Notes under the pieces: generated by a model | Database searches by the model: none | What the model saw: the letters and a program-made list of their open reading frames with translations, nothing else | What the model was told of the DNA's origin: nothing | Made by a program: the position numbers and the translations under genes | Part shown: positions 1-41,168 of the stretch, piece after piece | How positions within the stretch are numbered: position 1 is the stretch's first letter | Layout of the letters: each line of letters starts with the position of its first letter | Assembly (NCBI RefSeq): GCF_024502345.1 | Contig: NZ_JALDNN010000001.1 | Strand: one strand, 5' to 3' | DNA from: Escherichia coli | GTDB taxonomy: Bacteria > Pseudomonadota > Gammaproteobacteria > Enterobacterales > Enterobacteriaceae | Length of the DNA stretch: 64,000 nucleotides

Positions 1-230
1 ACCAGCGTTTGTCGACCGCCGTTGAACTGGGGAAATGGCCCGATGGCGTTGCGTTGACCGAGGAACAAAAAGCGAACTGCCTGCAACTGGTGATGCTGTG
101 GCAAGCTCGCCATAATACCGAAGCACAGCATATGACAATTGACACAAATGGTCAGATGGTCATGAAGAGCAAACAGCAGTTAAAAGAAGATTTTGGTATC
201 TCAGCAAAGCCTATTGCTATGTTTAAGTGA
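1..230 (+). CDS. 3' portion of a small conserved protein (DUF1315 / YeaC-like); start lies upstream of the window
   Basis: Frame is open from the window edge to the stop at 228-230. Translation ...LSTAVELGKWPDGVALTEEQKANCLQLVMLWQARHN... resembles the small YeaC-type protein from memory; not verified. Confidence 0.5.
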   Translation, partial: QRLSTAVELGKWPDGVALTEEQKANCLQLVMLWQARHNTEAQHMTIDTNGQMVMKSKQQLKEDFGISAKPIAMFK

Positions 231-390
231 ATGAGTTATCTAGTATTTAAGCCTGTTATTAAGGGAGGGCAAATATACTTGTTAGGACGTCGTGTTTTAG
301 CTGCAAGTAGGTTAAATGCAACACTGACAAGTATTATCTGGCCTACAATGTCATTGAGGAAATGTAGGCCAGAGATGAATTCAACTAATA

Positions 391-1032
391 TTACCCCTGC
401 GTCTCTTCCCAGTCTGCCAGCGTATATAGCGTTGCCCCAGCTGCTGACATCTCCATAAACGCGTGCGCACTGTCCTGGGGCTGGATATTCACGCCACGAC
501 AACCATCGGTAATCACGTTTACCTTATAACCTAACTGTAACGCGTCCAGCACGGTAAACTTCACGCAATAGTCAGTAGCCAGGCCCATAACGATCAATTC
601 ATCGATTTCATGATCGCGTAACCAGTCATCGAGAGAGGTTTTCTGCCGACGGCCGTTATCAAAAAAGGCACTGTAACTGTCAACTAAAGGATTTTCGCCT
701 TTATGGAACACCGCTGCGATCGCTTTTTGGTTCAGTAACGGATGTAATTGTGCGCCTTCACTGTTCTGCACACAGTGATCTGGCCAGAAGGTTTGTGGCA
801 AACCGTCGAGTTGGCCTGGCGTATAAGGCTCTACACCGTGCTGACTGGCAAAACTGCCGTGATTCGCCGGGTGCCAGTCCTGACTGGCGATAACCGCTTC
901 ACCGCGCGACTGGCACCAGTCAATCAGGCGGTTAGCGACATCTACCGTACTGTCACCTTCCGGCACGGCGAGCGCGCCACCAGCACAGAAATCATTTTGT
1001 AAATCGACCAGTAACAGGGCGCGAGGGGGCAT
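391..1032 (-). CDS. pncA: nicotinamidase / pyrazinamidase
   Basis: 213-aa product MPPRALLLVDLQNDFCAGGALAV... (isochorismatase fold). Track ORF extends 6 codons upstream; start set at the conserved MPPRALL. Lies 8 nt downstream of ansA. Confidence 0.93.
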   Translation of the reverse strand: MPPRALLLVDLQNDFCAGGALAVPEGDSTVDVANRLIDWCQSRGEAVIASQDWHPANHGSFASQHGVEPYTPGQLDGLPQTFWPDHCVQNSEGAQLHPLLNQKAIAAVFHKGENPLVDSYSAFFDNGRRQKTSLDDWLRDHEIDELIVMGLATDYCVKFTVLDALQLGYKVNVITDGCRGVNIQPQDSAHAFMEMSAAGATLYTLADWEETQG

Positions 1033-1042
1033 TGCAGTCTCC

Positions 1043-2059
1043 TTAATCATCCGGCGTCAGTTCGCCGCGCAGGTTTTGGCTCATGGCCTTGCGAATGGTT
1101 TCAGTATCCAGTTCCTGGCTCAGCAGGTAATGCAGTTTGGTTAGCGTGGCTTCTACAGTCATATCTGCACCGCCAATAACGCCGGCATGGGCGAGGGCGT
1201 TACCGGTGGCATAACCACCCATATTCACTTTACCGGACATACATTGTGTCAGGTTGACCACCACAATACCGCGATCGCTGGCTTCTTGTAATTCCTGCAG
1301 GAAGGCTTTGTTTTGTGGCGCATTACCCACGCCATAGGAGCGCAGAATCAATGCTTTCACCGGTTGGCGCAGAAAATTGCGCACGACATCAGCAGAAATC
1401 CCCGGATAAATCGTCACTACGCCAATTGGTTGTGGCGTGATTGGATGAACGATTAATTCCCCTTCACCGTGCGGGGCGGGTGGCGTATTCAAACGACGAA
1501 TATGGATACCAGCTTCCAGTAACGGAGGAAGGTTTGGAGAGGCAAACGCATCAAAACCATCGGCATGGGCTTTGGTAGTGCGGTTGCCGCGATACAATCG
1601 GTTATTGAAAAAGAGCGTTACTTCGTTGATCGGATAATTCGCCGCAACGTACAACGCATTCAGCAGATTAATTTGTCCGTCAGAGCGTAACTCAGCCAGC
1701 GGGATTTGTGACCCTGTCACAATGACCGGTTTACCGAGATTCTCGAGCATGAACGACAGCGCAGAGGCGGTATACGCCATCGTGTCGGTACCGTGTAGAA
1801 TGACAAAACCATCATAGTCGTCATAGTGCGCTTTAATATCTTCAGCAATATGCTGCCAGTCTTCCGGCGTCATATCAGAAGAATCCATCAACGGCGTATA
1901 TTCATGAATGGTGAAATCTGGCATCTCCGGGCGATGGAATTCCGGCATCAGCGCCAGTTGGCGTTGTAGATGACCTGACACCGGAATATAACCCTGCTCG
2001 GAACGCTGCATCCCGATGGTCCCGCCCGTGTAGGCGACGTAAATTGATTTCTTTTGCAT
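1043..2059 (-). CDS. ansA: cytoplasmic L-asparaginase I
   Basis: 338-aa ORF MQKKSIYVAYTGGTIGM...HGTDTMAYTASALSFM..., the asparaginase signature. Confidence 0.95.
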   Translation of the reverse strand: MQKKSIYVAYTGGTIGMQRSEQGYIPVSGHLQRQLALMPEFHRPEMPDFTIHEYTPLMDSSDMTPEDWQHIAEDIKAHYDDYDGFVILHGTDTMAYTASALSFMLENLGKPVIVTGSQIPLAELRSDGQINLLNALYVAANYPINEVTLFFNNRLYRGNRTTKAHADGFDAFASPNLPPLLEAGIHIRRLNTPPAPHGEGELIVHPITPQPIGVVTIYPGISADVVRNFLRQPVKALILRSYGVGNAPQNKAFLQELQEASDRGIVVVNLTQCMSGKVNMGGYATGNALAHAGVIGGADMTVEATLTKLHYLLSQELDTETIRKAMSQNLRGELTPDD

Positions 2060-2225
2060 GATATTGATATGAATGATATCGAAAGAGCAAAAGTATATAC
2101 GTGAGGCAGGAGGAGCGCACCTGATACTATGCGGATAAGGAAATATGGGGCGAGACAGCGGGAAGAGGATTCGTCGAGGTAAAAAATAATGTGGCCGACG
2201 ATCTGTCGGCCACTCAGTACAAGAC

Positions 2226-4082
2226 TTAACGCACGTTGGCGCAGGTCAGGCAAAACGCATAACGGTTTTGTGGGTCGTTAAACGCGGCCAGCTTGTCGCT
2301 TTCACTTTTAACGGTAGAGGCTACCGAGGCAAGCGGTGCAGGTAATATGGCCTGGAACGCATCTGGCAAAATTGCCCGGACAGAACCAGACATGTTGTCC
2401 ATCACTTTGTCGAAGAAGGTCGGTTCATCAACGTAGTATTCCAGATGCCACTGTTTCACTTTTGCGAGCTCTGCTGCTTTGGCAACCGCATCATCGAAAT
2501 CCCCGAGACTATCGACCAGCCCGTTAGCTTTTGCATCCTGACCGGTCCAGACGTGGCCCTGGGCGATTTTATCAATTTGCTCCGGCGTCGAATGACGCGC
2601 ATCAGCAACCAGCGTGATAAAGCGTTTATAGCCATTCTCAATGCTTAATTGCATCATCTGCTGCGCTTCCGGCGGCAGTGCCCTGGTGATAGAAACATCC
2701 GCCAGCGGTGAAGTTGAGACACCATCAGTATGAACACCAATCGAATCCAGACTATTTTCTACGGTGGTGATCACGCCGAAGATACCGATAGAACCGGTCA
2801 GGGTGCTGGGGTTAGCCACAATGTAATTAGCTGGCGTGGAAATCCAGTAACCACCAGATGCCGCCATGCCGCCCATCGATACAACCACAGGCTTACCCGC
2901 TGCCCGGGCTGCTGCCAGTTCAGCGCGAATCACTTCAGACGCGGTAACGCTGCCGCCTGGGCTATTAACACGCAGGACAATCGCTTTCACTTTCGGGTCA
3001 AGGCGAGCGTCGCGGATTTGTGCCGCAGTGGTATCACCGCCAACATTCCCCTGAGTTTCCTCGCCATCCATAATTGCGCCATTAGCGAAGACGACACCGA
3101 TGCTGTCACCGGTATCTGCCGGCGTTTTCAATGCGTAATCGTAATAACTGATGGCGCGATAATTTTTATCAGTCTTACTCCAGCCGAACTCTTTGGTCAG
3201 AGCTTTTTCGATTTCGGCACTCGATGCCAGTGCATCGACCAGCTTGTTTTCCAGTGCATATTTCGCGGTATCGCCACCGGTTTTGGTTAAACCCTCAAGC
3301 AACCCTTGCGCGCCAGGGAATACCTGCTGAGCAGGGATCTGCCGGTTAGCGGCAACAGTATTCAGATAGTTTTGCCACAGCTCACCAATCCAGCGGCTGT
3401 CAGCTTCGCGGGCTGCCGGTGACATGTCATCACGAATAAACGGTTCAACGGCAGATTTATACGTACCCACGCGGAACACATGGGTGGAAACTTTCAGCTT
3501 ATCCAGCAACGATTTGTAGTACAGACCGTTGGTAGCAAAACCGTGCAAATCCACCACGCCTTGCGGTGACAGCCAAATTTTATTGGCGAAACTGGCGAGA
3601 TAATATTGCCCCTGGCTGTAGTTCTCGCCAACGGCATAAACCGGTTTCCCGCTGTCACGAAACTCTTTCAGGGCTTTGCCGATGTACTGCATAGACGGCT
3701 GGTCGCCGCCTGCGAAGTTTTTCAGATCCATCACGATACCGGTGATATTGCGGTCGTCCTTCGCCTGGCGAATGGTGTTGACGATATCAAACAGTGAGTT
3801 TTCCTGCAGACGATCGGAACTGGCACCAAGCAGCTGGCGGCTTAATTTACTAAACCGCTGAGAACTGTCGGGTTTATCGACGATCACACCAGAAATGTCC
3901 AGCAGCAGTGCGCCACGACTGGCCGTTTCTTTCGAATCACCACCACTGACCTGCATCCAGATCCCCACACCAACCAGTACGAGGAAAATAAAGAACAGGT
4001 TAAGTACCATTTCACGGACGAAATTCAGCAGACGCCACGTCCATTTAAAAAATCCGGCAATAAATCGCCAAAGGGTTCGCAT
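2226..4082 (-). CDS. sppA: signal peptide peptidase A (protease IV)
   Basis: 618-aa product starting [21 protein letters not shown]... with an N-terminal TM segment and tandem S49 peptidase domains. Track ORF extends 48 codons further upstream. Confidence 0.93.
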
Positions 4083-4242
4083 GTATTCTCCCAACTTAAG
4101 GTCACACCTGTCACAGGCGCAATAGATGTGGTTATCGTAATGACCCAACCGGCACTTGTCAGCAGGAATTGCGGACTGTGCTGTAACAAAATCCACTCTC
4201 GTGTTAATTTTGTGAATAAATCTCACGACAGGAGTTAATCAA

Positions 4243-4794
4243 ATGGATGCACTCGAACTATTGATCAATCGCCGTAGCGCCTCCCGCCTGGCTGAACCCG
4301 CACCAACGGGTGAACAACTGCAAAACATCCTGCGTGCGGGTATGCGCGCGCCGGACCATAAGTCCATGCAACCGTGGCATTTTTTTGTGATTGAAGGGGA
4401 AGGGCGCGAGCGTTTCAGCGCCGTACTGGAACAGGGGGCGATTGCTGCCGGTAGTGATGACAAAGCTATCGACAAAGCCCGTAATGCGCCGTTCCGCGCA
4501 CCGCTCATCATCACGGTGGTGGCGAAATGCGAAGAAAATCATAAAGTCCCGCGATGGGAACAGGAAATGTCTGCCGGATGCGCGGTCATGGCGATGCAAA
4601 TGGCAGCCGTTGCCCAGGGATTTGGCGGCATCTGGCGCAGTGGCGCATTAACTGAAAGTCCGGTAGTGCGTGAAGCATTCGGTTGCCGTGAGCAGGATAA
4701 AATTGTCGGTTTTCTCTACCTCGGCACGCCGCAGTTGAAAGCATCTACGTCGATTAACGTCCCGGACCCGACGCCGTTTGTAACTTATTTCTGA
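4243..4794 (+). CDS. ydjA: NAD(P)H nitroreductase family protein
   Basis: 183-aa [29 protein letters not shown]...; divergent from sppA. Confidence 0.9.
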
Positions 4795-4910
4795 TAATTG
4801 TCGCGAAACTGTCTGGATTGTGAGCAAAGGCGCAGGAATTCAGAGACTCTCACTTATCACTTCACGGAATGAGGGTTACCATACCCGGATTGCATTGACA
4901 GGAGATGTCC

Positions 4911-5954
4911 ATGAGCGAGAACTCGATTCGTTTGACCCAATACAGCCACGGAGCTGGTTGCGGCTGTAAAATTTCCCCAAAAGTGTTGGAAACCATCCTG
5001 CACAGTGAGCAGGCGAAGTTTGTTGATCCGAATTTGCTTGTGGGTAATGAAACCCGCGACGATGCGGCGGTGTACGATCTGGGCAATGGCACCAGCGTTA
5101 TCAGTACCACCGACTTCTTTATGCCGATCGTTGATAATCCTTTCGATTTTGGCCGCATTGCGGCGACTAACGCCATCAGCGATATCTTCGCGATGGGGGG
5201 CAAACCGATTATGGCGATTGCGATCCTCGGCTGGCCGATTAACAAACTTTCCCCAGAAATTGCCCGCGAAGTAACCGAAGGTGGACGCTATGCATGCCGT
5301 CAGGCGGGTATTGCGCTGGCTGGCGGTCACTCCATCGATGCGCCGGAGCCGATTTTTGGTCTGGCGGTAACGGGGATCGTACCGACCGAGCGGGTGAAGA
5401 AAAACAGTACCGCACAAGCCGGATGCAAACTGTTCCTGACGAAACCGCTGGGGATCGGCGTTCTTACCACGGCTGAGAAAAAATCACTGTTGAAACCAGA
5501 ACATCAGGGACTGGCGACGGAAGTGATGTGCCGGATGAACATCGCAGGTGCGTCCTTTGCCAACATCGAAGGCGTAAAAGCGATGACCGACGTTACTGGT
5601 TTTGGTCTGCTGGGCCATTTGAGCGAAATGTGTCAGGGCGCAGGTGTGCAGGCGCGCGTTGACTATGACGCGATCCCAAAATTGCCGGGGGTTGAAGAGT
5701 ACATTAAGTTGGGCGCAGTGCCTGGCGGCACCGAACGTAACTTTGCCAGCTACGGTCATCTGATGGGTGAAATGCCGCGTGAAGTGCGCGATTTGCTGTG
5801 CGATCCGCAAACTTCTGGCGGTTTGCTGCTGGCGGTCATGCCGGAAGCAGAAAATGAGGTTAAAGCTACAGCCGCCGAGTTTGGCATTGAACTGACGGCG
5901 ATTGGCGAACTGGTGCCAGCGCGCGGCGGTCGTGCCATGGTTGAGATCCGTTAA
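4911..5954 (+). CDS. selD: selenide, water dikinase (selenophosphate synthetase)
   Basis: 347-aa product [30 protein letters not shown]... (Cys17 form). Track start is 2 codons upstream. Confidence 0.95.
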
Positions 5955-5958
5955 TTCA

Positions 5959-7920
5959 ATGCGGTTGTTTATTGCCGAAAAACCGAGTCTGGCGCGCGCC
6001 ATTGCTGATGTCCTGCCCAAACCGCACCGTAAAGGCGATGGCTTTATCGAGTGCGGTAATGGTCAGGTGGTGACCTGGTGTATCGGTCACCTGCTTGAGC
6101 AGGCGCAGCCAGACGCCTACGACAGCCGCTATGCGCGCTGGAATCTTGCGGATTTGCCGATTGTCCCGGAAAAGTGGCAATTACAGCCCCGACCCTCCGT
6201 GATCAAACAACTTAACGTCATCAAACGGTACCTGCATGAAGCCAGCGAAATCGTTCACGCCGGGGACCCGGATCGCGAAGGGCAACTGCTGGTGGATGAA
6301 GTGCTGGACTATCTGCAACTGGCACCGGAAAAGCGCCAGCAGGTGCAGCGTTGCTTGATAAACGACCTGAACCCGCAGGCGGTTGAGCGGGCGATCGACC
6401 GTCTTCGTTCCAACAGTGAGTTTGTACCGCTGTGCGTTTCTGCGCTGGCGCGAGCGCGTGCCGACTGGCTGTACGGCATCAATATGACCCGTGCGTATAC
6501 TATTCTCGGTCGCAATGCCGGTTATCAGGGCGTGCTTTCCGTGGGACGCGTGCAGACACCCGTGCTCGGGCTGGTGGTGCGCCGCGATGAAGAGATTGAA
6601 AACTTCGTGGCGAAAGACTTCTTTGAAGTCAAAGCGCATATCGTGACACCTGCCGATGAGCGGTTTACCGCTATCTGGCAACCGAGCGAAGCGTGTGAAC
6701 CGTACCAGGATGAAGAAGGGCGCTTGTTACATCGTCCACTGGCGGAGCATGTGGTTAACCGCATTAGTGGTCAACCGGCTATTGTCACCAGCTATAACGA
6801 TAAACGGGAATCAGAATCCGCGCCGCTGCCTTTTTCGCTTTCGGCGTTGCAGATTGAAGCGGCAAAACGTTTTGGTCTGAGTGCGCAGAACGTGCTTGAT
6901 ATCTGTCAGAAACTGTACGAAACGCACAAGCTAATCACTTATCCGCGTTCTGATTGTCGCTATTTGCCAGAAGAACATTTTGCCGGACGCCACGCGGTGA
7001 TGAATGCCATCAGCGTTCATGCACCGGATCTGTTGCCACAGCCAGTGGTAGATCCAGATATACGCAACCGCTGTTGGGATGACAAAAAGGTCGATGCGCA
7101 CCACGCCATCATTCCGACCGCACGGAGTTCTGCGATCAACCTGACGGAGAACGAAGCGAAGGTCTATAACCTGATTGCCCGTCAGTACTTGATGCAGTTC
7201 TGCCCGGATGCGGTGTTCCGCAAGTGTGTTATCGAACTGGACATTGCCAAAGGCAAATTTGTCGCTAAAGCGCGTTTTCTTGCTGAAGCAGGTTGGCGCG
7301 CGCTGTTAGGCAGCAAAGAGCGCGATGAAGAAAACGACGGCACGCCATTGCCTGTGGTGGCGAAAGGCGATGAGTTGCTGTGTGAAAAAGGTGAAGTGGT
7401 AGAGCGGCAAACCCAGCCGCCGCGCCATTTTACCGATGCAACACTGCTTTCGGCGATGACCGGGATCGCGCGCTTTGTGCAGGACAAAGATCTGAAAAAG
7501 ATCCTTCGTGCGACCGATGGTCTGGGGACAGAAGCAACGCGTGCCGGGATTATTGAACTGTTGTTCAAGCGTGGTTTCCTCACCAAAAAAGGGCGCTATA
7601 TCCACTCCACCGACGCCGGAAAAGCGTTATTCCATTCGCTGCCAGAAATGGCTACGCGACCGGACATGACCGCGCACTGGGAATCGGTGCTGACGCAAAT
7701 CAGCGAAAAGCAGTGTCGCTATCAGGACTTTATGCAGCCGCTGGTGGGGACGCTATATCAGCTTATTGATCAAGCCAAACGTACTCCGGTGCGGCAGTTT
7801 CGCGGCATTGTGGCTCCGGGCAGTGGTGGCAGTGCTGATAAGAAAAAGGCTGCACCGCGTAAACGTAGTGCGAAAAAAAGTCCGCCAGCAGATGAAGCCG
7901 GAAGCGGGGCGATAGCGTAA
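5959..7920 (+). CDS. topB: DNA topoisomerase III
   Basis: 653-aa product [48 protein letters not shown]... with Toprim and topo-IA domains. Starts 5 nt after the selD stop. Confidence 0.95.
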
Positions 7921-30274: not shown

Positions 30275-30370
30275 GTGCTACGCCTGTCAGGCCTATTCGA
30301 CTCCTGCAATGCATTGAATTTGCATAGTTTTGTAGGTCGAATAAGGCGTTCACGCCGCATCCGGCGTGAA
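30275..30370. repeat. REP / BIME elements between cho and nadE
   Basis: ...ttgtaggtcgaataaggcgttcacgccgcatccggcgtgaac..., the canonical REP consensus, plus a second partial copy. Confidence 0.75.
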
Positions 30371-37364: not shown

Positions 37365-39626
37365 TTACGCCGGAATTTTGTCAATCTTAGGAATGCGTGA
37401 CCACACGCGGTGTGCTGCCATCAGCGTTAACAGTTCATCCATAAAACTACCGTCGGCGCTGTCAGCTTCCACAATCCCTTCTTCACCCTGGTCAGCGACC
37501 TTGATTGTTGCTTTAAACTTGCGCGCGTCTCCCGCCAGCGCAATCGGTTTAAGGTGTTTGTAGGCTTCCATCAGGTAGTAGTTGGCATCGCCGTTGTCAG
37601 CGATATCCGCGATATTGCCGCAAGGGACAATGACCGCATCGACCGTCAGCGAAGGCGCACCGGCAAAGGTAGCGGCTATAGGCAACACCGTACCGTCATC
37701 CGCAGTCACTTCACCCATTCGGGAGTAGAGCAGTTTGGCATGAACGCCTTTGGCCTTCAGGGCCTTAAGAATGGCCAGAAGGTCTGCCGATCTCACTTCA
37801 TCATTAAGTAAAATCGCTACCACGCGACCTTTCACATCACCGTCAGGAATGGCGTACAAACTTAAGGATGGATCCTTTTTCAGACCGTTGACGTCCGGAG
37901 GTGGGGTGATATTCAGCTGGTCGTCAGTCAGTTCGATACCGAGATTTTTCGCCACCGCCTGGGCCAGAGTGAGATCAATATGCGCCAGCTGGTCAACAAC
38001 GCGCTCACGAATATACGGACGAACGACTTTGCTTAACTCAAAACTGAAACCATCGACAATATGACGCTGCTCGAATGGCGTCTGACTTAGCCAGAACAGA
38101 CGCGGATGGGAATAATATTCGCCAAAAGATGGACTGCGCTCGCGAACTTTATTTCCTTCCACGCGTTCCTGATATGATTCAAAACCGCCGCGTTTCGGTC
38201 CCGGCGGTGTTTCGCGCGGCCAGTTATCGTTGATCGAGTTCGGTTCGTAATTCGCCGGGTTAGTGTCGATCCCCATACGATGCATGCCATCACGCTGGAA
38301 GTTGTGGTAAGGGCAGGTCGGACGGTTAATCGGAATCTCATGGAAATTCGGCCCACCAAGACGACTGATTTGTGTATCGGTATAGGAGAACAAACGTCCC
38401 TGCAACAGCGGATCGTTGGTGAAGTCCAGTCCCGGCACGATATGCCCAGGATGGAAAGCCGCCTGTTCGTTTTCAGCAAAGAAGTTATCCGGGTTGCGAT
38501 TGAGCACCATTTTGCCGACACGCTGAACGGGCACCAGTTCTTCCGGGATAAGTTTGGTTGGATCGAGAAGATCGAAGTCGAACTTGAATTCATCTTCTTC
38601 AGGAATCAACTGGAAGCCCAGTTCGTATTCCGGAAAATCGCCTGCTTCAATGGCTTCCCACAACTCGCGGCGGTGGAAGTCCGGGTCACGTCCGGTTAGT
38701 TTTTGTGCTTCATCCCAAACGAGTGAGGCTTTACCTGCCAGTGGTTTCCAGTGGAAACGTACAAACGTTGCCTTCCCTTCGGCATTAATCAGGCGGAAGG
38801 TATGAATACCAAAGCCTTCCATGGTGCGGTAACTGCGGGGGATGCCGCGATCCGACATCGCCCACATCACGTTGTGCAGAGTTTCAGGTTGCAGAGAAAC
38901 ATAATCCCAGAAAGTATCGTGGGCGCTTTGCCCTTGTGGAATTGCCCAGTGTGGTTCTGGTTTTACCGCATGAACAAAATCGGGGAATTTATGCGCATCC
39001 TGGATAAAGAAGATTGGCGTGTTATTGCCAACAAGGTCAAAAATACCCTCTTCGGTATAGAATTTGGTGGCAAAGCCACGGATATCACGCACGGTATCGG
39101 CAGAGCCAGCACCACCCTGAACAGTAGAGAACCTAACAAATACTGGGGTGATTTTGTTCGGATCTGAGAGGAAATCCGCTTTGGTGATATCGCTTAAGCT
39201 TTTATATGGCTGGAAATAACCGTGAGCTGCTGATCCACGTGCATGAACAATACGTTCCGGGATGCGCTCATGGTCAAAGTGGGTGATTTTCTCGCGCAGA
39301 ATAAAATCTTCCAGCAGCGTTGGACCACGGCTACCGGCACGCAGTGAGTTTTGATCGTCGGCGATGCGCACGCCCTGATTAGTGGTCAGCGCATAATTTT
39401 CACTGCCTTTGCGTACGTCTTCCAGAGAATTAAGTTTTTCGTTACGTGTATCAGGGGCTTTCAGGCTCCCAGGGGCGGTAGGTTGTGCACCTGGCGGTGT
39501 TGGTTCAGCCGCTGGACGATGAGATCCGTCCTCAGGTGCCAGTGAGTCCATCCCCGGTTTCGCTTCGCTGGAATCGTGTAGTGGTGACTGGTGCTGATGT
39601 GGGTTCTTTTCGTTATGTTGCGACAT
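37365..39626 (-). CDS. katE: catalase HPII
   Basis: 753-aa [38 protein letters not shown]... Confidence 0.96.
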
Positions 39627-39829
39627 TGAACTCGTCTCCTTAATTTATTACTGAAAGGGCCGCTGTTTTGGTCAAAAAACTCTCTAACTATAGACCACCA
39701 GCCAGATCCCGCTTCGGAGACTATTCTGGAAACGGTGTTATGAAATACACGCAAAGCGGGACGTACAGGGGCTAAATCGGCTAAACTACAGTTTTTCTAA
39801 TTTTTAATATGCGTTTAGTGAAGCCAGTA

Positions 39830-40072
39830 ATGAAGAAACCGCTCCGCCAGCAAAACCGCCAGATTATTAGCTATATCCCACGCACGGAACCCGCGCCGCC
39901 AGAACATGCGATAAAGATGGATTCGTTTCGTGATGTCTGGATGCTGCGTGGCAAATATGTTGCGTTTGTACTGATGGGAGAGTCATTTCTGCGCTCACCG
40001 GCGTTTACTGTGCCTGAATCTGCCCAACGTTGGGCAAATCAGATCCGCCAGGAAGGGGAAGTGACTGAGTAA
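39830..40072 (+). CDS. cedA: cell division modulator CedA
   Basis: 80-aa MKKPLRQQNRQIISYIPRTEPAPPEHAIKMDSFRDVWMLRGKYVAF... Confidence 0.88.
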   Translation: MKKPLRQQNRQIISYIPRTEPAPPEHAIKMDSFRDVWMLRGKYVAFVLMGESFLRSPAFTVPESAQRWANQIRQEGEVTE

Positions 40073-40360
40073 GGATTACATACCTCCCGGTTTTGCCGGG
40101 AGTTACATGACCTGAAATTCTGCATTTCGTTGCTACATTCATTCAAACCACCTGTAACAAAAAGCTGCCTTTGACGAGCTATTGCTATAAATAAGTGATC
40201 TTTTTTCTTTAATTGTTCATTTATTTTAAAATGGTTAAGTTTTGCTAATCATGATGAGCTATTTTTGATAGTTCATCCTGTGGCGTCGCGCTTAAACTTA
40301 TATTGTAAGTGACTTAGATTTAAATGAGATAATAATTTTGTTAACAATATGAGGCGGGAG

Positions 40361-41165
40361 ATGTTTTCTACAAACTTAATACAGAGTAATTATGGTGATT
40401 TAAATATTAAAAGCCTGGCTTTCGAATCTTTTAAAGAAAGGCTTGAGTCTACCATGGCGGCACTCACTTTCTTTATATCAACGGGTCAATGTGACTGCGA
40501 TGAAATAGCAGAGTCGAACTTCAATCGTATGATTGCCTATATGTCTAACATTAACTATGATGCCTCAAAGCCAGGAGCGCCAGCACTTAGTTTTGATACG
40601 TATCTGCAGGACAATGTTAAATATAGAGTGATAATTAATAATCTTTATGGCAGTGAGTTTCGGATAAGAGATGTTAATGAGAATTTTGTTGGGATGGATT
40701 TTACCTGTGAATTCCGACCCGAAAAAATGACGAATTTGATCAATATAAAAAATAGGTTGGTTATTCATTATTTAAGGACTATATACTATGAAAAAAATTA
40801 TATACATCCTGCCGGGAGCATTTTTGCTGCGATTCAAAAAAAATGAGAGTCTCCTAAAGTTTCCTTCGATAATATCAATGCTTAATATCAATCTTCTTTT
40901 TAATCCACTAAATCTTCCGGGAATGGGAAGTGGTGTGCTTGAAGATATTATGAGTATTCCAGATAGTTCACTTAGAAAACGTCTCGGGTATGAGGTTTTA
41001 AGCTTCTCACTACAGGCACATTCATTGAGCCAGGAATGTATTGATAAGTTGGACATTTTTTTCGCTGACGATCTGTTTAAATATGAGTCAGTATGCATCG
41101 CCGCGATGGAACATTTAAAAAGTAAAGCAACGGCCCCTATACAAAACGGACCGTTGCCAGCATAA
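40361..41165 (+). pseudogene. ydjO: AT-rich gene of unknown function, ydjO-like, with a frameshift between two poly-A tracts
   Basis: ORFs 40349-40846 and 40788-41165 overlap in different frames. Removing one A from the A8 run (40836-40843) or the A7 run (40791-40797) gives a single ORF of about 267 aa. Confidence 0.65.
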
Positions 41166-41168
41166 GAA

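What the first reader, a model, noticed from the sequence alone, without database searches (positions are those of the whole stretch)
40788..40846. Poly-A frameshift splitting the AT-rich ydjO gene
Two overlapping ORFs (165 and 125 aa) reconstitute a single ~267-aa protein if one A is removed from the A8 run (40836-40843) or the A7 run (40791-40797). The gene is strongly AT-rich relative to its neighbours, typical of H-NS-silenced accessory loci.
Basis: seen in the sequence. Interest (0 to 1): 0.45.

Follow-up and report, generated by a model that had tools for sequence, protein, structure and literature searches.

The report
Common frameshifted ydjO pseudogene allele
One extra A in a run of adenines (A8 where the intact gene has A7) breaks the small E. 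coli-only gene ydjO; the same broken allele is in hundreds of other E. coli genomes and NCBI already annotates it as a frameshifted pseudogene, so the finding is real but ordinary.

Summary
ORFs 40349-40846 (165 aa) and 40788-41165 (125 aa) overlap at an A8 run (40836-40843), and the locus is about 36% GC against about 50% nearby.

Alignment with E. coli K-12 fixes the lesion at the A8 run only: K-12 has A7 there. Deleting one A restores a 267-aa YdjO.

The allele is inherited, not a sequencing error. Exact-match counts over 5,426 complete E. coli genomes give A6 11, A7 2,582, A8 642, A9 137 and A10 1-2. RefSeq marks A8 copies "frameshifted".

A7 is ancestral. It is intact in distant lineages (dN/dS 0.12-0.27), and a divergent allele class has an interrupted run.

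A8 lineages then picked up more damage: R119* in 671 genomes, extra indels, and drift to A9 and A10. Other lineages lost ydjO in other ways (a T-run deletion in O157:H7, IS insertions, no gene at all in B2 strains).

This is ordinary decay of a dispensable, AT-rich, H-NS-bound orphan gene by replication slippage. Programmed frameshifting and phase variation are poorly supported.

The parts
40073..41168 (.). AT-rich islet between the cedA stop and the tcyP stop, carrying ydjO and its upstream region
   Evidence: 35.6% GC against 50.2% for the window. In the B2 strain Nissle 1917 only 46 nt separate cedA and tcyP. About 1,160 of 5,398 matching genomes match only the tcyP end of the query.
40120..40360 (+). 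AT-rich region upstream of ydjO, equivalent to the K-12 ydjO/cedA 'promoter island'
   Evidence: GC 0.30-0.40. PMC3661553 Table 1 lists this island as H-NS-bound and linked to predicted foreign genes. Consensus promoter hits here are no more frequent than in shuffled sequence.
40361..41165 (+). ydjO pseudogene: 805 nt, one nucleotide longer than the intact 804-nt gene
   Evidence: Alignment with K-12 b1730 and 14 other alleles. RefSeq annotates the same allele as 'frameshifted'.
40349..40846 (+). ORF1: N-terminal YdjO fragment, 165 aa from the upstream ATG or 161 aa from the K-12 start at 40361, ending ...AAIQKK*
   Evidence: The 165-aa product class forms a database cluster of 2,273 member sequences.
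40715..40717 (+). Codon 119 (CGA, Arg), intact in this window. It is TGA in most other A8/A9/A10 alleles.
   Evidence: The R119* haplotype matches 671 genomes exactly; the same block with intact R119 matches 48.
40747..40752 (+). A6 run, unchanged here. It has lost one A in strains STEC17-183 and 89-3156.
40791..40797 (+). It is not the frameshift site.
   Evidence: It aligns without gaps in all 16 alleles. K-12 reads GAACAAAAT here. Repairing here gives a poorer match to YdjO.
40836..40843 (+). A8 run: the frameshift site (+1 A relative to the ancestral A7, which encodes CAA AAA AAT = Gln-Lys-Asn)
   Evidence: Allele counts: A6 11, A7 2,582, A8 642, A9 137, A10 1-2.
40844..40846 (+). Premature TGA created by the frameshift
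40788..41165 (+). ORF2 (125 aa, +1 frame). From 40842 onward it encodes YdjO residues 161-267; the first 18 codons are an out-of-frame overlap with ORF1.
   Evidence: The C-terminal 107 residues are identical to K-12. AAGGA at 40774-40778 lies 9 nt before the ATG (read). Translation of ORF2 is not shown.
41056..41062 (+). T7 run, unchanged here. It is the site of an independent 1-nt deletion that frameshifts ydjO in O157:H7.

Best explanation
ydjO in this window is a true pseudogene, heritable and shared by a whole lineage. An ancestral A7 run, which simply encodes Gln-Lys-Asn (CAA AAA AAT) at codons 159-161, gained one A by replication slippage. The ribosome now reads CAA AAA AAA TGA and stops after residue 161. 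It makes at most an N-terminal fragment that lacks the most conserved part of the protein, residues 161-267.

The gene is a dispensable, AT-rich, H-NS-bound orphan with many homopolymer runs. Run-length indels are therefore its usual route to inactivation, and once broken it keeps decaying.

Shown here: the position and direction of the lesion, its prevalence, that it is derived, the later secondary lesions, and purifying selection on intact alleles.

Inferred: replication slippage as the mutational mechanism, and loss of function of the truncated product.
For: 1. Site and direction. There is a single 1-nt gap relative to K-12, inside the run (A8 against A7). The repaired protein is 251/267 identical to K-12 YdjO and identical after the run.

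2. Real and inherited. There are 642 exact A8 matches among 5,426 complete genomes. All 40 closest haplotypes (99.6% identity or more) have the same length, or are 1 nt longer. PGAP marks them 'frameshifted'.

3. Derived state. Intact A7 alleles occur in K-12, ST648 isolate 648, ECO_1_S, 25-06685 and 19SZHZ663Rt. The allele 25-06685 has the window-type sequence just upstream of the run and still has A7.

4. Real gene when intact. dN/dS is 0.12-0.27 in both halves across intact alleles, and the length stays at 267 codons even at dS of about 0.9.

5. The run is incidental. The divergent allele class (P0005, L018) reads CAAAATAATGAA there.

6. Decay after the hit. Among A8-lineage alleles I found R119* (671 genomes against 48 with the same block intact), an extra +A (ABWA45), a lost A in the A6 run (STEC17-183, 89-3156), A9 (137 genomes) and A10 with R119*.

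7. Dispensability.
- O157:H7 has its own T-run deletion.
- O145 has A6 on a different haplotype.
- IS elements interrupt ydjO in an O104:H4 strain (PMC3486847), in strain 504211 and in a heat-evolved K-12 (PMC10044804).
- B2 strains lack the gene.
Against: The window's own allele carries only the A8 lesion; R119 and the whole downstream frame are intact. From this sequence alone it cannot be told apart from a recently broken gene, or from one rescued at a low level.

The downstream 321 nt differ from K-12 at only 2 synonymous sites, so there is too little divergence to test for relaxed selection in this particular allele.

No reads, RNA or protein data were available. The function of YdjO is unknown, so 'loss of function' cannot be tied to a phenotype.
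Confidence: 0.9

Rival explanations
1. Sequencing or assembly artefact: the genome really has A7 and the extra A is a homopolymer miscall.
For: Homopolymer length errors are common in long-read assemblies (general knowledge). No reads were available. The window has no 100% match over 901 nt in the collection; the best is 99.9%.
Against: The nearest haplotypes all carry A8, and 642 complete genomes from many laboratories do too. The allele travels with a specific upstream haplotype and with nested secondary mutations, which is the pattern expected of inheritance.
Confidence: 0.03
2. Recoding, or a 'pseudo-pseudogene': some full-length YdjO is still made from the A8 allele. The route would be RNA polymerase slippage in the run (an A7 or A10 transcript) or a +1 ribosomal shift of tRNA-Lys on AAA AAA UGA.
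For: A runs are slippery for both RNA polymerase and ribosomes. Baranov et al. 2005 (PMC1088944) argue that some E. coli 'authentic frameshifts' at A/T runs may be restored at the mRNA level. Here the 0-frame stop codon directly follows the run, and a +1 shift within the run would give the exact wild-type sequence (read). This allele has no other lesion.
Against: Restoring the frame needs a 1-nt deletion or a 2-nt insertion. In E. coli transcripts, slippage in A/T runs gives almost only 1-nt insertions, and deletions within runs are rare (PMC5574713).

Baranov et al. find that selection against slippery runs typically becomes evident at 9 nt, not 8.

Neither the run nor the two-ORF layout is conserved: A7 in most alleles, and an interrupted run in the divergent class.

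Most A8/A9 descendants carry an upstream nonsense codon, which indicates that nothing downstream was being maintained.

The bases just upstream of the run are GCGATTC, with no Shine-Dalgarno-like stimulator of the kind prfB uses.
Confidence: 0.05
3. Phase-variable contingency locus: the A run works as an ON/OFF switch for ydjO through frequent reversible changes in length.
For: Five run lengths (A6 to A10) exist in the species. At least four or five separate length changes can be inferred:
- A7 to A8.
- A8 to A9 to A10 within one lineage.
- A7 to A6 on two different haplotypes.
Against: Run length is stable within haplotype groups; all 40 nearest relatives are A8. Run lengths A9 and A10 occur in alleles already killed by R119*, which is drift rather than switching. 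The run is interrupted in the divergent allele class. No A8 to A7 reversion was identified. Runs of 7-9 A in mismatch-repair-proficient E. coli mutate far more slowly than classical contingency loci (general knowledge, not tested here).
Confidence: 0.03
4. Split gene: ORF1 and ORF2 are translated separately and the two polypeptides still function together.
For: The ATG of ORF2 at 40788 has AAGGA 9 nt upstream. ORF2 contains the whole conserved C-terminal half.
Against: The two-ORF state is confined to one derived lineage, and most of its members also carry R119* in ORF1. The first 18 codons of ORF2 are an out-of-frame by-product. No data show that it is translated.
Confidence: 0.02

Closest known systems
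RefSeq/PGAP-annotated 'frameshifted' ydjO pseudogenes in E. coli (e.g. QEO87_RS10845 in strain AREA_C483, BCV59_RS03710 in CFSAN004176; O121:H19 strains carry the same A8 sequence)
   Same: Same gene, same A8 run, same truncated product. The 901-nt region is 99.7-99.9% identical.
   Different: The window has a private D22E change (C to A at gene position 66). Only AREA_C483, among the alleles I sampled, shares its V105 variant. No 100% identical copy is in the collection.
Intact ydjO (b1730, NP_416244.2) of E. coli K-12 MG1655
   Same: Orthologous locus and synteny: katE-cedA-ydjO-tcyP-ydjM. The C-terminal 107 residues are identical.
   Different: K-12 has A7 and a single 267-codon ORF. The 5' half differs at about 9% of nucleotides (16 amino acids), a separate allele class.
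Frameshifts at A/T runs proposed to be rescued by transcriptional slippage ('pseudo pseudogenes', Baranov et al. 2005, PMC1088944)
   Same: An ORF disrupted at a poly-A run, while another strain of the same species has the intact ORF.
   Different: Those cases involve 9-nt runs where a 1-nt insertion restores the frame. This is an 8-nt run that needs a deletion or a 2-nt insertion, and its descendants carry further disabling mutations.
Independent ydjO inactivations: O157:H7 (T7 to T6), O145 RM12275-C1 (A6), O104:H4 and strain 504211 (IS insertions), B2 strains (gene absent)
   Same: Loss of the same dispensable gene. Most of the indels fall in homopolymer runs.
   Different: Different sites and events; each is an independent lesion.

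Membership tests
Frameshifted pseudogene (derived, lineage-specific inactivation) | An intact single-ORF ortholog exists and the lesion maps to a defined indel | tested here: met
   K-12 and five other intact 267-codon alleles. There is a single +1 A in the run.
Frameshifted pseudogene (derived, lineage-specific inactivation) | The disrupted state is derived, not ancestral | tested here: met
   A7 and an intact ORF occur in distant allele classes (K-12 type, ST648, ECO_1_S). The allele 25-06685 has A7 on a window-type local background. The divergent class has an interrupted run.
Frameshifted pseudogene (derived, lineage-specific inactivation) | Further disabling mutations accumulate in the lineage (relaxed constraint) | tested here: met
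   R119* in 671 genomes against 48 with the block intact. Extra indels, A9 and A10 also occur. The window's own copy has only the first hit.
Frameshifted pseudogene (derived, lineage-specific inactivation) | No functional full-length product is made | not testable with these tools
   This needs proteomics or reporter assays.
Programmed transcriptional slippage site (IS-element A9, Thermus dnaX, Shigella mxiE type) | Run length at which slippage is efficient (typically 9 or more A/T in bacteria) | tested here: not met
   The run is A8. The 9-nt threshold is from PMC1088944.
Programmed transcriptional slippage site (IS-element A9, Thermus dnaX, Shigella mxiE type) | The run and the overlapping-ORF layout are conserved among homologs | tested here: not met
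   Most alleles are A7 with a single ORF. The run is interrupted in P0005/L018.
Programmed transcriptional slippage site (IS-element A9, Thermus dnaX, Shigella mxiE type) | The usual slippage product (+1 nt) restores or fuses the frames | tested here: not met
   The frame needs -1 or +2 nt. Slippage in E. coli runs gives mainly 1-nt insertions (PMC5574713).
Programmed +1 ribosomal frameshift (prfB type) | A slippery P-site codon followed by a 0-frame stop codon | tested here: met
   AAA AAA TGA at 40838-40846. This arrangement is an automatic consequence of adding one A to CAA AAA AAT GAG.
Programmed +1 ribosomal frameshift (prfB type) | An upstream Shine-Dalgarno-like stimulator, and conservation of the shift site among orthologs | tested here: not met
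   The upstream sequence is GCTGCGATTC, with no SD-like element. The site is absent from intact orthologs.
Phase-variable contingency locus (simple-sequence repeat switch) | Run length varies among very closely related isolates and reverts | tested here: not met
   All 40 nearest haplotypes have the same run length. Length changes track lineages, and no reversion was seen. The sample is limited: 21 alleles were read in full, the rest only counted.
Phase-variable contingency locus (simple-sequence repeat switch) | High switching rate (above about 1e-5 per generation) | not testable with these tools
   This needs fluctuation assays or deep sequencing.
H-NS-silenced, horizontally acquired AT-rich islet | AT-rich relative to the genome, and present or absent depending on the strain | tested here: met
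   35.6% GC against 50.2%. Absent from B2 strains: Nissle 1917, ATCC 25922, ATCC 11775.
H-NS-silenced, horizontally acquired AT-rich islet | H-NS occupancy and repression | not testable with these tools
   Literature only. PMC3661553 Table 1 marks the K-12 ydjO/cedA island as H-NS-bound in the Kahramanoglou and Oshima data sets. Nothing is known for this strain.

The most novel reading that the evidence does not exclude
The ydjO A run is a mutational and transcriptional hot spot whose length tunes expression of an orphan protein. A8 copies with no other lesion, like this window's and those of O121:H19, would still make a little full-length YdjO by slippage or +1 shifting. A7 and A10 copies would be fully ON. 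On this reading ydjO is a slow contingency or 'pseudo-pseudogene' locus, not a dead gene.
Probability: 0.05. Interest if true: 0.35.

Novelty: already known. Interest (0 to 1): 0.1.

Why it matters
It matters little beyond correct annotation. In this genome ydjO should be called a frameshifted pseudogene, with the lesion assigned to the A8 run.

Two practical notes follow:
- ydjO has been proposed as an E. coli/Shigella 'conserved signature' qPCR target (PMC11057252). In the complete-genome collection it is absent from roughly a fifth of genomes (B2 strains) and disrupted in many others. The gene's presence, and certainly its protein, is not universal.
- The locus is a clean small example of how an AT-rich, H-NS-bound orphan gene decays through homopolymer indels. 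The order of events can be reconstructed: A7 to A8, then R119*, then A9 and A10.

Tried and rejected
1. Repair at the A7 run (40791-40797). Rejected: there is no gap there in any allele, and the repaired protein matches YdjO less well.

2. Function from homology. Nothing was found:
- Pfam, NCBIfam, PADLOC and PHROGs gave no significant family.
- A profile search against PDB sequences gave nothing at E up to 10.
- An exhaustive profile search of 1.84 billion representative proteins returned only YdjO fragments and two spurious hits. P0079 looks like a YdjO with systematic A-to-G-type substitutions, probably an artefact. P0104 is a low-complexity repeat protein.

3. Structure. The AlphaFold2 model built on 16 sequences had mean pLDDT 44 and pTM 0.37. 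That is too poor for fold searches, so none were run.

4. Outgroup scan. An exact 32-mer from the conserved 3' half found nothing among the species-representative genomes. I believe the E. coli representative there is the B2 type strain, which lacks ydjO; this is inferred and my own knowledge.

5. Diversifying selection as the cause of the hypervariable 5' half. Rejected: dN/dS is 0.18-0.24 there. Deep allele classes shuffled by recombination fit better.

6. Promoter and terminator scans around ydjO gave no more hits than shuffled sequence.

7. Rfam found no RNA family in or next to ydjO.

Full report
**Locus.** The window is ordinary E. coli chromosome. The local gene order is katE (37365-39626, minus strand), cedA (39809-40072, plus), ydjO (40361-41165, plus) and tcyP/ydjN (41169-42560, minus).

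**Observation.**
- The A8 run is at 40836-40843, followed at once by TGA. An A7 run lies at 40791-40797.
- The gene is 36% GC against 50% for the window.
- Only three A/T runs of 8 or more occur in the 64 kb, and three of the 24 runs of 7 or more fall inside this 805-nt gene.

**Where the lesion is.** Aligned with K-12 MG1655 ydjO (b1730), the window has exactly one gap, inside the second run: A8 against A7 in K-12. The first run aligns without a gap; K-12 reads GAACAAAAT there. Removing one A from the A8 run gives a 267-aa protein that is 251/267 identical to K-12 YdjO. All 16 differences lie upstream of the run, and the last 107 residues are identical. Repairing the first run instead leaves about 17 out-of-frame residues (242/267). 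The site is therefore unambiguous.

**Is it real, and how common is it?** I used 86-90-nt queries that differ only in run length against 5,426 complete E. coli genomes and counted exact matches.

| Run length | Genomes with an exact match |
|---|---|
| A6 | 11 |
| A7 | 2,582 |
| A8 | 642 |
| A9 | 137 |
| A10 | 1-2 |

- These are lower bounds. Haplotypes with SNPs in the flanks are not counted, and about 480 genomes with divergent flanks were seeded only by the A6 query.
- The 40 best matches to the window's 901-nt region (99.6% identity or more) are all the same length or 1 nt longer, i.e. A8.
- RefSeq annotates these copies as pseudogenes, 'frameshifted'.
- The 165-aa ORF1 product class has 2,273 member sequences in the protein collection.
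- A sequencing artefact is therefore very unlikely, although I could not inspect reads.

**Which state is ancestral?** I read 21 alleles in full.
- Intact 267-codon genes with A7 occur in K-12, ST648 isolate 648, ECO_1_S, 25-06685 and 19SZHZ663Rt.
- The allele 25-06685 has the window-type sequence immediately upstream of the run and still has A7.
- A strongly divergent allele class (P0005; loci L018 and L019) is also intact, in the same synteny. It reads CAAAATAATGAA at the site, so the homopolymer itself is not conserved.
- Among intact alleles dN/dS is 0.12-0.27 in both halves, and the length stays at 267 codons even at dS of about 0.9.
- ydjO is thus a real protein-coding gene under purifying selection where it is intact. 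A8 is derived.

**What happened after the hit?** Every sampled allele with the window-type block has A8 or longer, and most carry more damage.
- A nonsense change, CGA to TGA at codon 119, is in O111:NM, 10_253, MB15, O113:H21, STEC17-183 and 89-3156.
- ABWA45 has an extra +A about 25 nt downstream of the run.
- STEC17-183 and 89-3156 have lost one A from the A6 run 90 nt upstream. This restores the frame but coexists with R119*.
- MB15 and O113:H21 have A9. 23CRST010, in the same lineage, has A10: it is back in frame but is still annotated 'internal stop'.
- Across the collection, the R119* haplotype has 671 exact matches. The same block with R119 intact has 48, largely O121:H19 and relatives.
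- The simplest order is A7 to A8 first, then R119*, then drift of the run to A9 and A10. The window's copy is the minority 'first hit only' state.

**Other routes to loss of ydjO.**
- O157:H7 keeps A7 but has lost a T from the T7 run, equivalent to 41056-41062.
- O145 RM12275-C1 has A6 on a K-12-type haplotype.
- IS elements interrupt the gene in an O104:H4 strain (PMC3486847), in strain 504211 and in a heat-evolved K-12 (PMC10044804).
- About 1,160 genomes match only the tcyP end of the query. In Nissle 1917 just 46 nt separate cedA and tcyP. The strains sampled from this group are Nissle 1917, ATCC 25922 and ATCC 11775, which I know as B2 strains.
- Truncated products are also recorded for Shigella flexneri and S. 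sonnei.

**Nature of the gene.**
- No family, domain or solved relative was found.
- An exhaustive profile search of 1.84 billion representative proteins returned only YdjO fragments and two spurious hits.
- The AlphaFold2 model was unusable, with pLDDT 44.
- In K-12 the ydjO/cedA intergenic region is listed as an H-NS-bound 'promoter island' associated with predicted foreign genes (PMC3661553).
- ydjO is therefore an Escherichia-restricted orphan on a 1.1-kb AT-rich islet.

**Mechanism.** The best explanation is replication slippage adding one A to an incidental A7 run. This creates CAA AAA AAA TGA and truncates the protein before its most conserved half. Neutral decay follows.

**Rivals.**
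- *Transcriptional slippage rescue* needs a 1-nt deletion or a 2-nt insertion in an 8-nt run. E. coli RNA polymerase slippage in A/T runs gives almost only 1-nt insertions (PMC5574713), and the usual threshold is 9 nt (PMC1088944).
- *A prfB-like +1 ribosomal shift* lacks an upstream stimulator and is not conserved among orthologs.
- *Phase variation* is not supported. Run length is stable within haplotype groups, the A9 and A10 steps happened in alleles that were already dead, and no reversion was seen.
- Low-level, non-programmed restoration cannot be excluded without experiments.

**Verdict.** The feature is an ordinary pseudogene allele that is already annotated.

Noticed in passing
window 40218-40900; compare L018:3001-3480, L005 (K-12), L013, L014: The ydjO promoter region and 5' half exist as deeply divergent allele classes within E. 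coli. Differences from the window reach 16-33 per 100 nt for the L018 type and 19 per 100 nt for K-12 in 40618-40717. The 3' half and the flanking cedA and tcyP differ by only about 0-5%. A block at residues 100-118 (EIRIRGINKDFIGMDVTSVF against EFRIRDVNENFVGMDFTCEF) is shuffled among haplotypes. dN/dS is about 0.2, so this looks like old alleles plus recombination, not diversifying selection.
   Followed up: partly
window 40073-41168; L012:2956-3001 (Nissle 1917): The whole ydjO islet is missing from B2 strains, including Nissle 1917, ATCC 25922 and the type strain ATCC 11775. These have a different 46-nt cedA-tcyP spacer with its own hairpin. This conflicts with the use of ydjO as a universal E. 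coli/Shigella 'conserved signature' qPCR target (PMC11057252).
   Followed up: partly
L006 and L007 (strains STEC17-183, 89-3156), equivalent to window 40747-40752: These alleles carry A8 and have also lost one A from the A6 run 90 nt upstream. The gene is back to 804 nt and the downstream frame is restored, but they also carry R119*. It looks like a compensating frameshift in a gene that is already dead.
   Followed up: yes
L011 (O157:H7 Gim1-1), equivalent to window 41056-41062: O157:H7 has an independent ydjO frameshift (T7 to T6) on a K-12-type A7 haplotype.
   Followed up: yes
protein P0079 (299 aa): This YdjO-like protein matches over its full length, but many residues look like the result of systematic A-to-G changes in the DNA (N/K/I become G/S/R/V). 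It is probably an artefact of chemically or enzymatically converted sequencing data, not a true homolog.
   Followed up: no
window 40774-40790: The ATG of ORF2 (40788) is preceded by AAGGA at a 9-nt spacing. Its out-of-frame first 18 codons (MKKIIYILPGAFLLRFKK) look like a signal peptide. K-12 has a 24-codon ORF in the same frame. This is probably a chance effect of AT-rich sequence.
   Followed up: no
window 54188-54312 (+), 58152-58310 (+), 30289-30331 (-): Rfam hits elsewhere in the window: Phe leader (pheST), the sRNA STnc540, and ES036/CssrF just at its threshold. All are expected for this E. coli region.
   Followed up: no
window 40349-40363: An in-frame ATG lies 12 nt upstream of the K-12-annotated ydjO start, giving MRREMFST... 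Gene callers use it for the 165-aa product, and isolate 648 has MLST at the annotated start. The true start codon is not settled.
   Followed up: no
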